A DNA stretch of 64,000 bases from Escherichia coli (lineage in GTDB: Bacteria > Pseudomonadota > Gammaproteobacteria > Enterobacterales > Enterobacteriaceae). Below, piece after piece: positions 20,952 through 28,743 of this stretch. The stretch is taken from the NCBI RefSeq assembly GCF_050920415.1, contig NZ_CP169309.1; one strand, 5' to 3'. Position numbers and translations under genes: made by a program. Positions within the stretch are counted from its first letter, which is position 1. Each line of letters starts with the position of its first letter. The notes under the pieces are model-generated. The model had not been told where the DNA came from and ran no database searches. It saw nothing but the letters and a program-made list of their open reading frames with translations.

Positions 20952-22124
20952 TTAGCCAGCGTTAGCTTTTACGATATCGTCGATCAGTTTATTGACAGGT
21001 GCCAGGCTGATTTCACGCGCGGTGCTTACCGCGACCGGTGTGGAACGTACTTTATTTGCCAGTACCTGACCGTCACGGTTAGTGGTATTGACGCTCACCA
21101 GCGTGGATAAACCGATACGCAGCGGGTATTGTTCCAGCTGTTTCTGGTCCAGTTCAATACGAACAGGCAGACGCTGAACGACTTTGATCCAGTTACCGGT
21201 GGCGTTTTGCGCCGGAAGCAGCGAGAACGCGCTACCTGTGCCCATATCCAGACCAACCACTTTACCGGTGTATTTCACATCATCGCCGTAAATATCGGTG
21301 GTGATGGTGACCGGCTGACCGATACGCATATTGGCAATCTGCGTCTCTTTAAAGTTGGCATCCACCCACATATTGGTGGCTGGAACGACCGCCATCAGCG
21401 GCGTCGTTGGGCTAATTTGTGCCCCAGGCTGTACCGCGCGGCGGGAGACATAACCGGTCATCGGACTGACAATACGGGTACGCTCCAGCGCCAGCCAGGC
21501 GTTACGTACTTCGGTGGCAGCCTGTTGCACGGCAGGCTGATCTTCCAGTTTAGTCCCCAGAATCATCGCCTGATTGGCATTGTATTGTTGAATGGCGACA
21601 TCCAGTTGCGCCTGGGCACTGGTCACCGCGTCGCGGGCGTGTTGCAGCTCTTCGCGACCAATCAGGTTGGCATTGCCCAGCGGCACACGGCGGTTGTAGT
21701 CGCTTTGTGCTTTCGCGAGGGCGATTTTTTGCACCTCAATATTCGCCTGCAACTGTTTGCTGTTAATCATCAGCTGGTGGGTTTGGCGCACGCTGGAAGC
21801 CAGTGCCGTTTTGGCTTTTTCAAACGCCTGGCGAGCATCTGTCGGGTCGAGAGTGACCAGCACATCGCCTTCTTTTACAAAATCGGTGTTATCGGCCCAG
21901 ACTTTCGTCACGCTGCCAGACACCTGAGACATAATTTGAATCTGATTTCCTGCCACGTATGCGTCATCGGTTTCTTCGAAATGACGCAGTACCAAAAACC
22001 AATAAATCCCTATCGCTACGGCAATAATTATAAAGAGCAAGGTGAGAAGGAGGAGCAGACGCTTACGTTTGCCGCTCTTCTTTACCGGTTGCTGCGGGGT
22101 TTGAGTCTCCGCATTTGCGCTCAT
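20952..22124 (-). CDS. emrA: multidrug efflux membrane fusion protein EmrA
   Basis: Start chosen at MSANAETQ (390 aa); synteny. Confidence 0.92.
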   Translation of the reverse strand: MSANAETQTPQQPVKKSGKRKRLLLLLTLLFIIIAVAIGIYWFLVLRHFEETDDAYVAGNQIQIMSQVSGSVTKVWADNTDFVKEGDVLVTLDPTDARQAFEKAKTALASSVRQTHQLMINSKQLQANIEVQKIALAKAQSDYNRRVPLGNANLIGREELQHARDAVTSAQAQLDVAIQQYNANQAMILGTKLEDQPAVQQAATEVRNAWLALERTRIVSPMTGYVSRRAVQPGAQISPTTPLMAVVPATNMWVDANFKETQIANMRIGQPVTITTDIYGDDVKYTGKVVGLDMGTGSAFSLLPAQNATGNWIKVVQRLPVRIELDQKQLEQYPLRIGLSTLVSVNTTNRDGQVLANKVRSTPVAVSTAREISLAPVNKLIDDIVKANAG

Positions 22125-22250
22125 ATTGTTCTCCACGATCTTCTTAACTCATCGGCTGAGCCGACCTGCTTGCCAAAAAGGCCAGCATGTTGCGATGCTG
22201 GCCAGTCATTTTTTCTTTTATAAATCTGGATTTTTGAGCGAGATGACGCG

Positions 22251-22781
22251 TTAGCTCATCGCTTCGAGAACCACACCGTCTTGTTCCATCTGGTCGAGAC
22301 GGGAGAGCAATTTGCGGGTGATTTGCTCGAGTTGATCTTTTTCTGTTGTGCTGAGCGCGGACCAGAGTTGATGCAGGCAGTTATGCTGCGGTGGTAAAAC
22401 CTCGCGCAAAAACTCGTGACCTTTTTCCGTTAATTGCAGATGCAGGCAGCGGCGATCGTTATCGCTTTCACGACGTTCGATCCAACCGCGTTTTTCCAGT
22501 TCATCGGCAATACGCGTCGCGTTGGTACGGGATGATCCAAGAGCACAACTCAATTCAGAAGGCTGAATACTGTGGTTTTCCTGAGACTCCAGCGTAATCA
22601 ACGCCATAAACAACGTCTCGTTAATCCCCTGAGCCTTCAGCATTTTATTGCGGTTCTCCAGCAGCTTGCTTTGCATGTGCATGCAAAGACGAGTCAGAAG
22701 GATCTCCTGATAAGGAAAATCTTCGTGGCGGCTGGCGCGAAATTTTAGCATTTGTTCAATGGGCGTAAACGAACTATCCAT
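22251..22781 (-). CDS. mprA: MarR-family repressor of emrAB
   Basis: 176 aa; winged-helix MarR fold region; synteny. Confidence 0.92.
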
Positions 22782-22871
22782 TTGGGTATGACCTCATTAA
22801 TTTCAGCCGATATAGTAACGACAGTGACAAATAAAGTAAATGTATTGTTTTAGAAAAATGATTCTTGTGGG

Positions 22872-23207
22872 TTATATAATCGCCATCACTTTCCAGGCGA
22901 GCCCATAGGCCAGCGCACTAAGCAGTGTTGGGATGATAATGCTGCGTGTTTTATAGAAACTGGCACCCAGTACCGCGAAGCCGACCAGAGTGGGCACGAA
23001 ACGGCGTGTATCGTGCATCACTTCTGGTGCGGTAGAGACAACCAGCAGAGCGCATATCGAGGCGATGCCAATGGTGTCGAGCAAAATACCTACCGCGCCA
23101 CGTTTGGTTGGGCGGGCATTACCCACACGCAGGCGCAGCGGCAAATAGCGGAAGCAATAATTCGCCGCGCCAACCAGTAACCCAAGCAGCAGAACCTCAT
23201 AGCTCAT
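22872..23207 (-). CDS. ygaH: branched-chain amino acid exporter small subunit (AzlD-like)
   Basis: 111 aa hydrophobic ORF; synteny. Confidence 0.85.
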
Positions 23208-23934
23208 CGGGCGCTCCTTGCCAGAATGCCTGGATTAACGCAGTGAGGCAGCCACAGACAATGCCTGCCAGAATGGCGACGGGAATAGAAAATAGCGTTA
23301 CGCCTGCAAGGGCACCAACTAACGCTGCGGTAACGCAAAGAGATTGTTTGCGCTGGAAAGAGGCGAGCAGGAAACTCATAAAGAGTGCCGGAAGCATAAA
23401 ACCTAATGCTGCTTCAACGGCGGGATATCCTTGCAGCAAGCCGCTGCCGGAGAATGCCCCTATTACCGTACCAAATACCCACGATGACCATGAACTGAAG
23501 GCAATGCCGATCATCCAGTTCTCGCTCCAGCGGCGATTATTGCGTACCAGTTTTGCGGTTGCGGCGGCAAAAACCTCATCCGTCAGGCCAAACGCCCACA
23601 GGGCAGTTTTCGATTTTTGCAGACGCTGAATAATACGGCTACGCAGTGACGGGCCATACAAAACATGGCGAACATCCATTGCCATGACGGTCAGTGCAGC
23701 AACCCACAAACTACTCCCGGCTGCCAGCATCGCGGTAATGACGAACTGGCTCGCGCCTGCATAAATGATGCAGGAGAAAAAAACGCTTTCGAGAGGAGAG
23801 AATCCCAGACGGGTCGCATTCAGACCGAACGCAAAGGCCACCGGAATATAACTAATAACAATCGGTAAACTGTCTTTGCATCCTTCCATGAAGGTCGCCG
23901 AACCAGGAGCAGGCTGTGGAGTAGGGCTTTCCAT
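23197..23934 (-). CDS. ygaZ: branched-chain amino acid exporter large subunit (AzlC-like)
   Basis: 245 aa membrane ORF overlapping ygaH start. Confidence 0.85.
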
Positions 23935-24057
23935 AGAGTGTACGCTTAACGATTGTTAATATTATAAATAGACTGAATGAATATCTTAACCTTATCAGAC
24001 TGATGGGCTTCTTAACACCCTTATAAGTGTAAAGCCACGAAAACGGTTGCTGATTGC

Positions 24058-25242
24058 TTAATTTGCGGCTTCCTGACGATGAAAACCTCGCCACCAGACC
24101 AGTAAGTTAACCAGGGCAATCGTCGCGCCAGCCAGACAAACGCCAGCCCAACCGCCATGTTGCCAGGCTGAGGCTGAAATTAGCGAACCGGCGGCACCGC
24201 CAATGAAGTAGCTGGTCATGTAACCTGCGGTCAGGCGATTACGCGCATCAGGGTGTATTCGATAAATTACCGTCTGGTTAGTGATATGCACGCCCTGCAC
24301 GGTGAGATCCAGCACCAGGATGCCGATAATCAGCGCCAGTACGGAAGTGTGACCAAACCAGATCGCCAGCCATGAAAGTAACAGCAGCAGCAGACCGAAA
24401 GTTGTGGTGTGGTGCGATTTGCCCTTATCGGCAAATCCGCCCGCCGGACGAGCGCCCAACGCTCCGGCTGCTCCCGCAAGTCCAAACAGACCAATGACGC
24501 CATCGCTGTAATTAAAAGGCGGAGCGGCGAGCAAAAAGGCCATCGAGGTCCAGAGAATGCTGAAGTTGGCAAAGGTCAGGCAGCCCAGCAACGCGCGGGT
24601 GCGCAGAATTTTATCGCTGATAAACATGCTGAAAACGGAACCAAGCAACTGTGGGTAGTTGAGGTGGGTTTCTGATTTCATTTGTGGCAGACCACGCCAT
24701 AATGCCAGCGCCATCAGTGCCATTAACACCGAGGCAACCCAAAAGACGGTGCGCCAGCCGCCGAGGTTTGCCAGCAACCCGGCAACGGTTCGTGCCAGCA
24801 AGATCCCCAACAGCAGCCCGCTCATAATGGTGCCGACCACTTTGCCGCGTTTGTCCGGTGAAGCCAGCGTCGCTGCCAGCGGAACCAGAATTTGTGCCAC
24901 GACCGAGAATAAACCGGTTAATGCCGTACCGAGGATCATCATCGCCAGCGACTGACTGCTGGCGGTAATCAACATACCGCCCGCTGCCAGTAAGGTCATC
25001 GAGACAATCAGGCGGCGGCGTTCAAACATATCACCGAGGGGAACAAGAAACAGCAGACCTGCGGCATACCCCAACTGCGCGGCGGTAACAATAAAGCCCG
25101 CCGAACTGGCGGAAAGGGAAAAGTTACGCGCGATGGTGTCGAGCAATGGCTGGGCGTAATAGTTACTGGCTACCGCCAGACCGGTGGCGATAGACATCAG
25201 CACGATCAGCGCCGGGCTAAGCTCATGATTAGGTTTAGTCAT
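24058..25242 (-). CDS. ygaY: MFS transporter, apparently intact
   Basis: 394 aa uninterrupted ORF with 12-TMS pattern; this locus is recalled as a pseudogene in K-12. Confidence 0.75.
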   Translation of the reverse strand: MTKPNHELSPALIVLMSIATGLAVASNYYAQPLLDTIARNFSLSASSAGFIVTAAQLGYAAGLLFLVPLGDMFERRRLIVSMTLLAAGGMLITASSQSLAMMILGTALTGLFSVVAQILVPLAATLASPDKRGKVVGTIMSGLLLGILLARTVAGLLANLGGWRTVFWVASVLMALMALALWRGLPQMKSETHLNYPQLLGSVFSMFISDKILRTRALLGCLTFANFSILWTSMAFLLAAPPFNYSDGVIGLFGLAGAAGALGARPAGGFADKGKSHHTTTFGLLLLLLSWLAIWFGHTSVLALIIGILVLDLTVQGVHITNQTVIYRIHPDARNRLTAGYMTSYFIGGAAGSLISASAWQHGGWAGVCLAGATIALVNLLVWWRGFHRQEAAN

Positions 25243-25351
25243 TATTTTTGTTCATCAGGTGATGATTAAGCTGGAAATCAATAATAGCGGATGTTGATGA
25301 ATATGGGATGAAAGATAGATTGTTGAAATGTGCGGTGTGGTTTGTAGACAT

Positions 25352-25423
25352 GATAAGACGCGCCAGCGTCGCATCAGGCATTGTGTACAGAGCGGCGGAT
25401 GAGGCAAAAACGCCTTATCCGCC
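25352..25423. repeat. pair of REP-like palindromic units between ygaY and proX
   Basis: gataagacgcgccagcgtcgcatcaggca and gcggcggatgaggcaaaaacgccttatccgcc. Confidence 0.55.
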
Positions 25424-25433
25424 CGAGTAAAAA

Positions 25434-26426
25434 TTACTTCTGCGCTGCCAGCGCCTCATTCACCCAGCCATCGAACTGCTGCTGGTGGGCTTTGATCCAG
25501 CCATCAACGTGGCCCTGAATATCGCCTTCTGAGGCTTTGCCGTCATGCATAATGGCGTTCTGGGCGTTAATATCTGCCACTGGTAACTGCATAATGGCAA
25601 ACAGTTTCGCTGCTGCCGGGTTTTTCTCGGCCCAGGCTTTGTTGGCAACGATATGCATGGTACTGACCGGGAAGCCGTAATTCGCGCCATTCGGCAGTTT
25701 GGTATCGGCATTTTTATCGCCCGGCAGTGCGGAGAACGGCACCTGCAACCAGACCACATCTTTCCCCGGTTTCAGTTCGTTACTCACCCAGTACGGCGTC
25801 CAGGTGTAGTAAAACACCGGCTTACCCTCTTTGTAACGACTGATGGTGTCAGCCATCATCGCTGCGTAGTTCCCCTGATTATGCGTCACGGTATTGGTCA
25901 GTCCATACGCGGCAAGCTGGTGGTTGATCGCACCTTCGCAGCCCCAGCCTGGGTTACAGCCGGTTAAATCCGCTTTACCGTCGCCGTTGGTATCGAACAG
26001 TTTGGCGATCTTCGGATCTTTAAGTTGCGCGATGTTGGTAATTTTATACTGGTCGGCGGTTTTCTTATCGATCAGGTAACCCTGTGCCGCGCCGTTAACA
26101 AATACTCCTTCACGATAAAATTTCTTATCGCCACCGGCAGCTTCGTACATGTTGTCATGCAGTGGCGTCCAGTTCACTGCGGTGAAGGTTGCATCGCCGG
26201 AAGCAAGCGAGGTGTAGCCAACGTTGTAATCCACTTCGCTGGGTTTATTGACGGTATAACCTAATTTCTCCAGCGCGCGGCTGACCAGCAGCGTCTGGAA
26301 AGTTTCTTCGGTGATGGTGCTCTGAACCGGATTAACAGTAATGCCTTTGCCCGGCAGGTCGGCAGCAAAAGTTTGTGTAGAGATAAGCGTGGCAAACGCT
26401 GTCGCAAAAAGTACGCTATGTCGCAT
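25434..26426 (-). CDS. proX: glycine betaine/proline ABC transporter periplasmic binding protein
   Basis: Start chosen at [21 protein letters not shown] (signal peptide; 330 aa). Confidence 0.92.
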
Positions 26427-26483
26427 TGTTATTCCTTTTTTTGGCAGGGTGATAATGCCCGGCGTCACCGGGCAAGTGCAGAG

Positions 26484-27548
26484 TTACTTAATGAATGGGC
26501 GGGTCAGCAGACCGACAGGTCCAGTGGTGTACCAGCGACGGTTGCCGCGACTGCGTGAGTCGCGCCCAACGGCCTGCGTCAGGCGGTCGAGGATAATGGC
26601 GAGGATCACAATCCCGACGCCGCCAACGGTGGCAAGCCCCATATCCAGACGACCGATACCGCGAAGTACCATCTGACCCAGCCCGCCGACGGCAATCATC
26701 GAGGCGATGACCACCATAGAAAGGGCCAGCATCAGCGTCTGGTTAACGCCCGCCATTATGGTCGGCATCGCCAGCGGTAACTGAACTTTGAACAGCATTT
26801 GACGCGGGCTGGCACCGAATGAGCGCGAGGCTTCAATTAAATCCGCCGGAACCTGATTAATACCAAGAATCGTCAGACGGATAATCGGCGGCAGAGCAAA
26901 GATTATAGTCACCACTACGCCCGGCACGTTGCCGATACCAAACAGCATGACGATTGGCACCAGATAAACAAACGCTGGCGTGGTCTGCATGGCATCAAGC
27001 AGTGGACGAATAATTTTCGCCGCTCGCGGACTTCTCGCCAGCCAGATCCCCAACGGCAAACCTATGACGATACAGAACAGCAGGGCGGTTAACACCAGCG
27101 CCAGGGTAACCATGGCCTGCGACCAGGCACCGATTGCGCCGATGGCAATCAGCGAAACCAGAGTCGCCACGCCCATTCCGACCCCGGAAATCTGCCAGGC
27201 GATGAGAGCGAAAACGATAATCGCCACCGGCGCGGGCATACCCAGCAGCAATTGCTGGAAACCGTTGAGGATGTAATCAACCGGAACGCGCACGCCCTGA
27301 AAGACGGGACGAAAATGGGTAACGACCCAGTCGATCCCTTCAGTGACCCAACTGTCGAGCGGGATTAGCGTTTTATGGAACGGATCGAGAATATTAAAAT
27401 GCTCGACGTTTGGCGCAGGCGTACTGGTCAGCCAGTCAGCGCCACCGCCGTCAGTCGGTGCAGTCGCCGGTGTACCCCAGGCGTCTGCAGATTGTGCAGC
27501 ACTGTCCGCCGCTGGCGTGGTATCCCACGGATTATTTTGATCAGCCAT
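26484..27548 (-). CDS. proW: glycine betaine/proline ABC transporter permease
   Basis: 354 aa; synteny. Confidence 0.92.
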
Positions 27549-28743
27549 TATTTACCCCCTCACGATCTAAAGCGCGCAGCAGCATTCCTTTCGAAATGAT
27601 GCCGACATACTGTTGGTCCTCGTCGACCACGGGCACCGCACAGGGCGCTTGTCCGACATGAGAGAGCAACTCGCTAAGAGGCGTTTGCGCATCGACTGCT
27701 AATGGCGCATCAATCAGCGCCGCATCAAGACCTTGCTGCTGCGTTAACGCGGTTTTAAGCGAATCGATAGACACAGCGCCGACAAACTTATTACCGCGTT
27801 CGATAACGTAGCCATATTCGCGGTCTTCATCCTGCAATAATTTCAATGCCGAACGTGGGCCGAAGCCAGGGGTTTTACGAATTAAGCCATTCGGTGTCCG
27901 ACGGGCAATATCTTTCGCACTGAATACCTGACTAATATCAACGCCACGGAAGAAGGTACGGACATAATCATTCGCCGGATTATTGAGAATTTCATCCGGT
28001 GTGCCAACCTGCACCACTTCACCATTTTGCATAATGGCAATTCGGTCGCCAATACGCATAGCTTCGTCGAGATCGTGGGAAATAAAGACAATGGTACGTT
28101 GATGTTTCGCCTGTAATTTTACCAGCTCATCCTGCATCTCAGTGCGAATTAATGGATCAAGCGCCGAGAAGGCTTCGTCCATTAATAATATATCCGGATT
28201 AATTGCTAATGCGCGGGCTAATCCGACGCGTTGACGCATCCCACCAGAGAGTTCGTCCGGGTAGCTATGGGCATAATTTTCCAGCCCGACCTGACGCAGT
28301 GCATCAAGGGCTTTTTCCCGGCGTTCTTCGGCATTAATTCCGGCCAATTCCATACCGAATGCAGTATTGTCCAGCACGGTCATATGCGGCATTAAGGCAA
28401 AGGACTGGAAGACCATCGCAATCTTTTTTCTGCGCACCTCACGGAGTTCGGCGTCGGATATTTTGGCAATATCCACACCATCAATCAGCACTTGCCCGCG
28501 GGTGGGTTCAATCAGGCGATTGAGAAGGCGTACCATTGTGGATTTACCCGAACCGGATAATCCCATGATGACAAATATCTCGCCTTCTTCAATGGCCAGA
28601 CTGGCGTCTTTTACGCCAAGCGATAGCCCGGTTTTTTCCAGAATTTGTTCTTTTGAAAGTCCTTGTTCGATATATTTGAACGCTCGCTGAGGATGCTCGC
28701 CAAATATTTTATAGAGATTTTTAATTTCTAATTTAATTGCCAT
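27541..28743 (-). CDS. proV: glycine betaine/proline ABC transporter ATPase (tandem CBS C-terminus)
   Basis: 400 aa; Walker [13 protein letters not shown] signature LSGGMRQR. Confidence 0.95.

What the first reader, a model, noticed from the sequence alone, without database searches (positions are those of the whole stretch)
24058..25242. ygaY MFS transporter is intact here
A continuous 394-aa MFS-type ORF occupies the ygaY position between ygaZ and proX, which I recall as a pseudogene in K-12. Two REP-like units follow it. This implies a functional transporter in this strain.
Basis: partly seen in the sequence, partly recalled or inferred. Interest (0 to 1): 0.3.

Follow-up and report, generated by a model that had tools for sequence, protein, structure and literature searches.

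The report
Intact ygaY transporter gene, ordinary
This strain carries an unbroken copy of ygaY, a membrane-transporter gene that is broken in laboratory E. coli K-12, but the unbroken form is the normal state in over 90% of E. coli genomes, so the finding is correct and ordinary.

Summary
Window 24058-25242 (minus strand) is a 394-aa MFS transporter ORF between ygaZ and proX. K-12 MG1655 annotates the same locus as pseudogene ygaY (b2681, 1178 bp). The only structural difference is 7 bp (window ~24981-24988) missing in K-12, which stops translation after 88 residues. The other 35 differences are all synonymous.

Intactness is the species norm:
- All 10 named non-K-12 genomes inspected carry an intact 1185-bp CDS.
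- 55 of 60 evenly sampled complete genomes have a full-length 1185-bp match.
- The exact K-12 junction occurs in 353 of 5426 genomes, apparently K-12 lab derivatives.

K-12's nearest alleles (ML35, E. coli C; 789 genomes) carry a perfect tandem (GCGGCAT)x2 at the site, and K-12 has one unit. Restoring it makes K-12 identical to ML35 over 1185 bp.

The window protein is identical to WP_000165699.1 (EcN, BL21(DE3)). dN/dS is 0.01-0.04, synteny holds in Citrobacter, and the model is a confident 12-helix MFS fold (pLDDT 94).

The substrate is unknown. The protein belongs to the YnfM family (TC 2.A.1.36; 26% identity to YnfM) and is probably a proton-coupled exporter. The two REP units are real (Rfam naRNA4) but lie upstream of ygaY, at the proX 3' end.

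Already known; low interest.

The parts
24058..25242 (-). ygaY coding sequence, intact: 394 aa + stop, an MFS transporter of the YnfM family (TC 2.A.1.36)
   Evidence: ORF. Pfam MFS_1 E 2.6e-41. Same CDS boundaries annotated by PGAP in the near-identical genome MFDS1022581. Protein identical to that of EcN/BL21(DE3)/ETEC-2265, annotated WP_000165699.1. AlphaFold model pLDDT 94.1, pTM 0.92.
24981..24988 (-). Site of the K-12 lesion: the 7 bp (GGCAGCG in gene orientation; placement ambiguous by 1-3 bases) that K-12 lacks. Falls in codons 85-88, inside predicted helix 75-94 (TM3).
   Evidence: Pairwise and 4-way alignments. The K-12 product stops after 88 aa. Allele series at the site.
25243..25333 (-). 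ygaY-proximal upstream region (promoter and/or 5' leader). AT-rich (33% GC) and nearly invariant within E. coli. No consensus sigma-70 promoter or Shine-Dalgarno sequence recognised.
   Evidence: 1 segregating site in 91 nt versus 62/241 four-fold sites in the CDS, Fisher p 8e-9. Alignment. Promoter scan negative. Sequence.
25347..25424 (-). Pair of inverted REP units (BIME-like) directly after the proX stop codon. Matches Rfam naRNA4. Probably acts as the proVWX 3'-end stabiliser and partial terminator.
   Evidence: Rfam RF02564 63.5 bits, above gathering 59.5. Two hairpins, z = -5.5. Inverted repeats. The unit recurs elsewhere in E. coli genomes and on a plasmid. Duplicated as a 100-bp block in ETEC-2265.
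23935..24057 (-). ygaY-ygaZ spacer carrying the ygaZH promoter (TTAAGA-17-TATAAT, hexamers at 23989..23961). Nearly invariant within E. coli.
   Evidence: Promoter scan 10/12 match. The same hexamers are listed as a constitutive RpoD promoter between ygaY and ygaZ in K-12 (PMC3946193). 1/123 segregating sites.
23197..23934 (-). ygaZ (L-valine exporter subunit), the downstream neighbour (context)
   Evidence: ORF. Annotation of the near-identical genome.
25434..26426 (-). proX (glycine betaine/proline ABC transporter binding protein), the upstream neighbour (context)
   Evidence: ORF. The 993-bp CDS annotated in MFDS1022581 and K-12. 100% identity to MFDS1022581.

Best explanation
Window 24058-25242 (minus strand) is the intact, ancestral form of ygaY, a core gene of Escherichia and Citrobacter. 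It encodes a 12-helix major-facilitator transporter of the YnfM family (TC 2.A.1.36) and sits between proVWX and ygaZH. Shown: the ORF is complete. Its protein is identical to the most widespread E. coli allele and is under strong purifying selection. The K-12 pseudogene differs by loss of one 7-bp unit at codons ~86-88, which truncates the product to 88 aa. K-12's closest alleles carry a perfect (GCGGCAT)x2 tandem repeat at that site. K-12 is therefore most simply explained as a recent slipped-strand collapse of that repeat, confined to the K-12 lineage. Inferred: the protein works by rocker-switch alternating access driven by the proton gradient, probably exporting a small, possibly anionic, metabolite (about 50% exporter rather than importer). 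Membrane-embedded R151 (TM5, shared with YnfM) and D312 (TM10) are candidate substrate- and proton-binding residues. Expression probably comes from a weak own promoter, plus osmotically induced read-through from proVWX across the REP pair. The substrate is unknown.
For: - Intact ORF and family.
- K-12 pseudogene annotation.
- Window versus K-12: a 7-bp gap plus 35 differences, all synonymous. K-12 with the window's 7 bp restored encodes the identical protein.
- Allele series at the site: window/O157 GCAGCGGGCGGT; EcN GCAGCAGGCGGC; BL21/ETEC GCGGCAGGCGGC; E. coli C/ML35 GCGGCATGCGGC (G88C, perfect repeat); K-12 a single unit.
- K-12 plus one unit is identical to ML35 over 1185/1185 bp.
- The exact K-12 junction occurs in 353/5426 genomes. 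The 19 sampled rows are 4.58-4.70 Mb genomes, several explicitly named MG1655, K-12, O16:H48 or laboratory strains. A further 789 genomes carry the perfect-repeat allele.
- Intact 1185-bp CDS annotated in E. coli C, MFDS1022581, EcN, O157:H7, BL21(DE3), ETEC-2265, Ecol_867, GPEC403, MSB1_4I and ML35.
- 55/60 evenly sampled genomes match over exactly 1185 bp, 4/60 are K-12-type (1178 bp), and 1/60 has a larger deletion.
- dN/dS 0.008-0.043; 92 of 105 segregating sites are at third codon positions.
- An identical protein occurs on >=1000 contigs. E. fergusonii 98%, E. albertii 96%, Citrobacter 93%. Synteny nrdEF-proVWX-ygaY-ygaZH-emrR-emrAB is kept in Citrobacter.
- 1144 clusters (at 50% identity) match at E<=1e-30.
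- Model pLDDT 94.1. Best solved folds are SotB (TM 0.85), MdfA (0.83) and NorA (0.80), all 12-TM exporters.
- Full-length 26% identity to YnfM, E 2e-20. TCDB lists YgaY as 2.A.1.36.3 (PMC5417439). YnfM is a CCCP-sensitive glutarate exporter (PMC12622518).
- Conserved R151, D312, Q316, N322 and Q323 lie in helices.
- In K-12, ygaY transcripts are detectable and rise after salt shock; the authors attribute this to read-through from proVWX.
Against: - There is no experimental evidence here or in the searched literature that the intact protein is made or what it transports.
- No consensus sigma-70 promoter was found upstream of ygaY, and no Shine-Dalgarno sequence.
- An H-NS ChIP signal at ygaY in K-12 suggests possible silencing.
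- BL21(DE3) has an intact ygaY, yet deleting ynfM alone abolished glutarate export. YgaY therefore does not back up YnfM under those conditions.
- No NCBIfam equivalog reaches its cut-off.
- Distant homologs share no conserved neighbourhood.
- The DHA1 antiporter motif C is absent from TM5.
- The direction of the 7-bp event (collapse in K-12, or duplication restoring a K-12-like frameshift in relatives) is not proven.
Confidence: 0.85

Rival explanations
1. The ORF is intact but cryptic. It is H-NS-silenced and poorly translated, contributes nothing under ordinary conditions, and its intactness carries no physiological meaning for this strain.
For: No consensus promoter. No Shine-Dalgarno sequence, and an AT-rich (33% GC) upstream region. 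An H-NS ChIP peak and a DRE-ygaY bridge in K-12. K-12 lost the gene, and its deletion is used as a neutral control or integration site. The intact BL21 copy does not compensate for loss of ynfM.
Against: dN/dS of 0.01-0.04, with 35-45 synonymous and 0-5 amino-acid differences between alleles. Conservation with synteny across genera. These patterns require selection on the protein, so it must be expressed somewhere in nature. The near-invariant upstream region argues for a functional regulatory region. Transcripts are detectable in K-12.
Confidence: 0.2
2. The K-12 state is the older one in its clade. A 7-bp deletion in an EcN-like allele (GCAGCAG lost) produced the K-12 frameshift, and a later 7-bp tandem duplication (GCGGCAT) restored the frame in relatives. 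This created the G88C perfect-repeat allele now found in 789 genomes.
For: K-12/ML35 differ from the EcN allele at only two positions in 1185 bp. Both lie inside the 7-bp unit (258 and 262), exactly as a delete-then-duplicate path predicts. The K-12 sequence is the exact intermediate.
Against: The frameshift allele is seen only in K-12-type genomes, while the perfect-repeat allele sits in many diverse genomes. BL21/ETEC alleles already carry G at 258, so a single G-to-T change at 262 suffices to make the repeat. Collapse of a perfect tandem repeat is a common mutation. K-12 and ML35 are otherwise identical, which fits a very recent event in one lineage.
Confidence: 0.12
3. YgaY is an importer (proton symporter) for a nutrient or osmoprotectant rather than an exporter.
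For: The MFS fold does not determine direction. Good structural matches also include symporters such as DgoT, GlpT and NupG. The top NCBIfam similarity is to an aromatic acid/H+ symport subfamily, far below its cut-off. The gene is adjacent to, and possibly co-transcribed with, the osmoprotectant importer proVWX. A YnfM homologue has been proposed as a copper importer (PMC13101709).
Against: The best structural neighbours are exporters: SotB, MdfA, NorA. The only family member with direct transport data in E. coli and Corynebacterium, YnfM, is an exporter. The neighbours ygaZH and emrAB are exporters.
Confidence: 0.35

Closest known systems
E. coli K-12 ygaY (b2681; formerly ygaX + ygaY; UniProt P76628 reconstruction), pseudogene
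   Same: Orthologous locus with the same neighbours. 1178 of 1185 positions align, with 35 differences, all synonymous. The repaired K-12 sequence encodes the identical protein.
   Different: K-12 lacks 7 bp at codons ~86-88 and terminates after 88 aa. A 305-aa downstream frame restarts at Met90. The window sequence has no tandem repeat at the site (GCAGCGG GCGGTAT), unlike K-12's close relatives.
WP_000165699.1 'MFS transporter' of E. coli Nissle 1917, BL21(DE3) and ETEC-2265
   Same: 100% identical 394-aa protein, with the same position and CDS length. A protein 100% identical to the query occurs on >=1000 contigs (P0003).
   Different: 35-42 synonymous nucleotide differences (dS 0.12-0.15). 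The window's DNA allele is rare: >=99% identity in only 1 of 5426 genomes, MFDS1022581.
YnfM (TC 2.A.1.36.1), glutarate/dicarboxylate exporter of E. coli and Corynebacterium glutamicum
   Same: Same TCDB family (PMC5417439). Alignable end to end, 26% identity, E 2e-20. Shares Q31, D71, R75, R151 and R164.
   Different: Only 26% identical. The YgaY-subfamily residues D312, Q316, N322, Q323 and R336 are not present in YnfM. Intact YgaY in BL21(DE3) does not replace YnfM for glutarate export.
DHA1-type 12-TM MFS exporters with solved structures (SotB 6kkk/6kkl, MdfA 4zow/6euq, NorA 8ttf)
   Same: Same fold: TM-score 0.80-0.85, rmsd 2.4-3.9 A over ~380-390 columns. YgaY has an acidic residue in TM10 (D312), and NorA has one too (D307, named in the PDB entry titles).
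   Different: 15-18% sequence identity. No NCBIfam DHA1 model reaches its cut-off. TM5 lacks the G-x-x-x-G-P-x-x-G-G antiporter motif (sequence).
REP/BIME elements; Rfam RF02564 naRNA4 (REP325-derived, nucleoid-associated RNA)
   Same: Full-length match (model positions 1-77) above the gathering score. Two inverted hairpin units. A multi-copy genomic element.
   Different: This copy sits at the proX 3' end. Nothing here shows that it yields a stable HU-binding RNA. It is more simply a 3'-end stabiliser or partial terminator of proVWX.

Membership tests
Major facilitator superfamily (Pfam PF07690 MFS_1) | Profile match above the curated threshold | tested here: met
   142.2 bits against a 33.4 cut-off, E 2.6e-41.
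Major facilitator superfamily (Pfam PF07690 MFS_1) | Twelve transmembrane helices in two six-helix bundles | tested here: met
   The AlphaFold model (pLDDT 94.1, pTM 0.92) is all-helical. It superposes on SotB, MdfA and NorA at TM 0.80-0.85 over ~380-390 columns.
Major facilitator superfamily (Pfam PF07690 MFS_1) | Motif A (G-x-L-x-D-R/K-x-G-R-R/K) in the TM2-TM3 loop | tested here: met
   Residues 67-79 read VPLGDMFERRRLI, a recognisable variant. G70 and D71 are >=90% conserved and R75 80% conserved in a 54-sequence alignment.
YnfM family, TC 2.A.1.36 | Full-length homology to YnfM and listing in the family by TCDB | tested here: met
   BLASTP against K-12 YnfM gives 26% identity over 409 columns, E 2e-20. 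YgaY P76628 is cited as 2.A.1.36.3 (PMC5417439).
YnfM family, TC 2.A.1.36 | Shared transport activity (dicarboxylate/glutarate export, acriflavine phenotype) | not testable with these tools
   Indirect evidence only. In BL21(DE3), which has an intact ygaY, deleting ynfM alone abolished glutarate export (PMC12622518). This argues against redundancy.
DHA1 drug:H+ antiporters (TC 2.A.1.2) | Antiporter motif C (G-x-x-x-G-P-x-x-G-G) in TM5 | tested here: not met
   TM5 (residues 132-161) reads RGKVVGTIMSGLLLGILLARTVAGLLANLG and contains no G-P (sequence; helix limits).
DHA1 drug:H+ antiporters (TC 2.A.1.2) | Match to a curated subfamily model at its cut-off | tested here: not met
   The best hits are far below threshold: sugar transporter NF002921 63.8 against 401, and Bcr/CflA 50.4 against 200.9.
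ygaY orthologue (E. coli core gene between proX and ygaZ) | Conserved position and near-identical sequence | tested here: met
   5413 of 5426 genomes match >=80% of the gene at 95-99.9% identity. The neighbours are the same.
REP/BIME (Rfam RF02564 naRNA4) | Covariance-model score at or above the gathering threshold | tested here: met
   63.5 bits against 59.5, E 1.9e-10, model positions 1-77 of 77, minus strand, window 25347-25424.

The most novel reading that the evidence does not exclude
YgaY is a near-universal E. coli exporter that is switched on with proVWX by osmotically induced read-through across the REP pair. It has a role in osmoadaptation or metabolite overflow, possibly alongside the adjacent ygaZH valine exporter. 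On this reading, the K-12 model strain has lacked a physiologically relevant transporter throughout its laboratory history, through a 7-bp repeat collapse. The near-invariant intergenic flanks would then be its regulatory elements.
Probability: 0.12. Interest if true: 0.4.

Novelty: already known. Interest (0 to 1): 0.1.

Why it matters
It matters little beyond bookkeeping. The gene is annotated as an intact MFS transporter in thousands of genomes, and its pseudogene status in K-12 is long established. There are three modest points of use. First, K-12 is the exception, so work on YgaY function must use other strains (EcN, BL21(DE3), O157:H7) or a repaired K-12. Second, the K-12 lesion can be described precisely as loss of one unit of a 7-bp tandem repeat present in its nearest relatives. 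Third, ygaY is widely used as a 'neutral' integration or control locus in K-12, and that assumption does not carry over to strains where the gene is intact and under strong purifying selection.

Tried and rejected
1. Counting intact alleles with a junction-specific 47-mer. It seeded in only 2143 genomes, because SNPs near the site break the 28-base word. I replaced it with an evenly spread sample of full-CDS matches.
2. Initial idea that the E. coli C allele must have arisen by a 7-bp deletion plus a 7-bp duplication, because it shows 4 clustered differences from the window. This was weakened once the BL21/ETEC and EcN alleles showed intermediate states one or two point changes away. I kept it as a low-probability rival.
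3. Substrate inference from genomic context of distant homologs at 46-57% identity. The neighbours differed in every case: a chemoreceptor with Rdx, an AraC-type regulator with an FMN-binding protein, an old-yellow-enzyme-type reductase, and flagellar genes. No conserved partner emerged.
4. NCBIfam equivalogs and PDB sequence search. Only generic, sub-threshold MFS similarity.
5. A search for a known RNA element, promoter or terminator in the constrained upstream region. Nothing was found except the REP pair.
6. My recalled Y-type REP consensus with 3 mismatches found nothing in the window. The Z2-like pattern match is partly circular, because I had read the sequence first. The REP claim therefore rests on Rfam and the multi-copy BLAST hits.
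7. Literature on intact YgaY function. None found. Papers treat ygaY as a K-12 pseudogene, a neutral locus or an H-NS contact site.

Full report
OBSERVATION

The ORF listing finds an ATG-initiated ORF of 394 aa at exactly 24058..25242, on the minus strand. It matches Pfam MFS_1 at E 2.6e-41 (142 bits against a 33.4-bit cut-off), with weaker Sugar_tr and MFS_4 hits. The surrounding minus-strand ORFs are emrA, emrR/mprA, ygaH, ygaZ (23197-23934), then this ORF, then proX (25434-26426), proW and proV. That is the K-12 order proVWX-ygaY-ygaZH-mprA-emrA. K-12 MG1655 (NC_000913.3) annotates ygaY b2681 as a pseudogene of 1178 bp, and PGAP flags it 'frameshifted' in a K-12-like genome.

THE K-12 LESION

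A global alignment of the window gene with K-12 ygaY shows one 7-bp gap and 35 mismatches. The gap lies at gene positions 255-261, window 24982-24988, with the placement ambiguous by a few bases. All 35 mismatches are synonymous. K-12 with the window's 7 bp put back encodes a protein identical to the window's. In K-12 the frame runs into a stop after 88 residues, and a 305-codon frame resumes at Met90. This explains the old split annotation ygaX/ygaY.

Alleles from other strains explain how the lesion arose:
- window, O157:H7: CTG GCA GCG GGC GGT ATG
- EcN: GCA GCA GGC GGC
- BL21(DE3), ETEC-2265: GCG GCA GGC GGC
- E. coli C, ML35: GCG GCA TGC GGC, which is a perfect tandem repeat GCGGCAT-GCGGCAT and gives G88C
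- K-12: a single GCGGCAT unit

Adding one unit back makes K-12 identical to ML35 at all 1185 positions. The simplest reading is a very recent slipped-strand collapse of a 7-bp tandem repeat in the K-12 lineage. The reverse order, in which a K-12-like frameshift was later repaired by duplication in relatives, is not excluded. K-12/ML35 differ from the EcN allele only at two positions, and both lie inside the unit. I rate the reverse order at about 12%, for two reasons. The frameshift is confined to K-12-type genomes, and G at position 258 is a polymorphism shared with other haplotypes.

HOW COMMON IS INTACTNESS

The gene is present in 5413 of 5426 complete E. coli genomes at >=80% coverage. A 40-mer that can only seed across the K-12 junction matches in full in 353 genomes. 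The 19 sampled rows are 4.58-4.70 Mb genomes, several explicitly named MG1655, K-12, O16:H48, MFDpir, ER1709 or transconjugant/laboratory strains. A further 789 genomes match bases 1-29 only, which is the signature of the perfect-repeat allele.

In an evenly spaced sample of 60 genomes, 55 match over exactly 1185 bp. Four are K-12-type at 1178 bp (ER3413, MC1061 and others), and one has a larger deletion. PGAP annotates an intact 1185-bp CDS in all ten non-K-12 genomes I opened. Intact ygaY is therefore the rule and K-12 the exception. Sporadic truncated variants do exist in the protein databases (short 98-100%-identical clusters), so occasional independent losses or assembly errors occur.

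IS IT FUNCTIONAL

- The window protein equals the protein of EcN, BL21(DE3) and ETEC-2265, annotated WP_000165699.1. A protein 100% identical to the query is seen on >=1000 contigs.
- Against ten other alleles, dS is 0.05-0.16 and dN/dS 0.008-0.043. Of 105 segregating sites, 92 are at third codon positions.
- Orthologues are 98% identical in E. fergusonii, 96% in E. albertii and 93% in Citrobacter. Citrobacter keeps the whole nrdEF-proVWX-ygaY-ygaZH-emrR-emrAB arrangement.
- The wider family is large: 1144 clusters at 50% identity with E <= 1e-30.
- An AlphaFold model from a 54-sequence alignment is confident (pLDDT 94.1, pTM 0.92) and all-helical. Its best solved matches are the 12-TM exporters SotB (TM 0.85), MdfA (0.83) and NorA (0.80), at 15-18% identity.

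These results show a complete protein maintained by selection. They do not show expression or activity.

WHAT IT PROBABLY DOES

TCDB places YgaY in family 2.A.1.36 (YnfM family) as 2.A.1.36.3 (PMC5417439). I tested this directly: YgaY aligns end to end with K-12 YnfM at 26% identity, E 2e-20. YnfM is a CCCP-sensitive glutarate exporter in E. coli BL21(DE3) and a dicarboxylate exporter in Corynebacterium (PMC12622518). A Salmonella/Pseudomonas homologue has been proposed as a copper importer (PMC13101709).

Conserved polar residues inside helices are Q31, Q56, R151 (TM5, shared with YnfM) and D312, Q316, N322, Q323 (TM10, specific to the YgaY subfamily). A variant motif A (LGDMFERRRL) is present. 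The DHA1 antiporter motif C is absent from TM5 (sequence). No NCBIfam equivalog reaches its cut-off.

My best inference is a proton-coupled alternating-access transporter, more likely an exporter of a small, possibly anionic, metabolite. R151 and D312 are candidate substrate and proton sites. This is inference. I put exporter versus importer at roughly even odds, leaning exporter. Glutarate is unlikely to be the shared substrate, because BL21(DE3) has an intact ygaY yet deleting ynfM alone abolished glutarate export. Distant homologs have no conserved neighbours.

REGULATION AND THE REP UNITS

The 191-bp proX-ygaY spacer begins, directly after the proX stop codon, with two inverted hairpin units. 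They fold at -36.5 kcal/mol, z = -5.5. They match Rfam naRNA4 (RF02564), a REP-derived family, over the full model above its gathering score. The unit recurs several times per genome. ETEC-2265-type strains carry a 100-bp duplication of the pair. So the 'two REP-like units' are real, but they are upstream of ygaY and belong to the proVWX 3' end.

The simple scans found no consensus sigma-70 promoter, and I saw no Shine-Dalgarno sequence before ygaY. In K-12, ygaY RNA is detectable and rises moderately after salt shock; the authors attribute this to read-through from proVWX. H-NS contacts the ygaY region (PMC10656529; bioRxiv 10.64898/2026.02.10.705075). The ygaZH promoter TTAAGA-17-TATAAT lies in the 123-bp ygaY-ygaZ spacer. 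It is the constitutive promoter reported for K-12 (PMC3946193), so ygaZH does not depend on ygaY transcription.

COMPARISON AND VERDICT

The literature I could search treats ygaY only as a K-12 pseudogene, a neutral locus or an H-NS contact point, and no study of the intact protein turned up. Nothing here departs from known kinds of system. Novelty: already known. Interest: about 0.1.

The most novel reading not excluded is that YgaY is a near-universal exporter co-induced with proVWX, which K-12 has lacked all along. I give that about 12% probability and moderate interest if true.

Noticed in passing
window 25243-25333 and 23935-24057: Both intergenic flanks of ygaY are almost invariant among nine E. 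coli alleles (1/91 and 1/123 segregating sites). Four-fold degenerate sites inside the CDS vary at 62/241 (Fisher p 8e-9 and 1e-11). The AT-richness of the spacers (33-36% GC against GC3 of 62%) cannot account for a roughly 25-fold contrast. In Citrobacter the upstream spacer is only loosely conserved. This suggests strong species-level constraint on regulatory DNA, such as H-NS contact sites or promoters. No control intergenic regions were tested.
   Followed up: partly
window 24975-24991 (equivalent site in other strains: L004, L012, L001): 789 of 5426 complete genomes carry a perfect 7-bp tandem repeat (GCGGCAT)x2, giving G88C, at the K-12 lesion site. This allele is prone to the same frameshift. 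The window allele lacks the repeat. The direction of the K-12 event (collapse or re-duplication) is not formally resolved.
   Followed up: partly
window 20952-28743: The window is essentially identical to strain MFDS1022581 (NZ_CP169399.1, food isolate, South Korea). The flanks are 100% identical, with one SNP in ygaY (R265S in that strain). The ygaY-proVWX segment is a rare DNA allele, >=99% identical in only 1-2 of 5426 genomes. The adjacent emrA-ygaZ segment is >=99% identical in 396 genomes. This suggests a recombination mosaic with a boundary near ygaZ/ygaY.
   Followed up: partly
L008:1409-1699 (ETEC-2265) versus window 25334-25433: Some strains (ETEC-2265, and the 2-piece hits H16, H17, H26, H27, H29) carry a 100-bp insertion that is a second copy of the REP pair after proX. 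Other strains diverge at the proX-proximal end of the spacer: matches stop at query position 1489 or 1401.
   Followed up: partly
window 25236-25256 (minus strand): A 6-codon mini-ORF, ATG AAC AAA AAT AAT GAC TAA (MNKNND), starts 14 nt upstream of the ygaY ATG and overlaps it out of frame. Neither start has a Shine-Dalgarno sequence. The stretch is invariant across E. coli alleles. This could be chance, or a translational coupling or leader feature.
   Followed up: no
protein P0001 (ENA metagenome contig, 5428 bp): A 596-aa protein scores higher than the self-hit (1092 against 834 bits) at 73% identity. It probably contains about one and a half YgaY copies, either a tandem duplication or fusion, or a misassembly.
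   Followed up: no
NZ_CM129877.1 (strain PCP06021), hit H214: One sampled genome keeps only 158 bp of ygaY, with the match annotated as adjoining ygaH. This implies a deletion removing most of ygaY and ygaZ.
   Followed up: no
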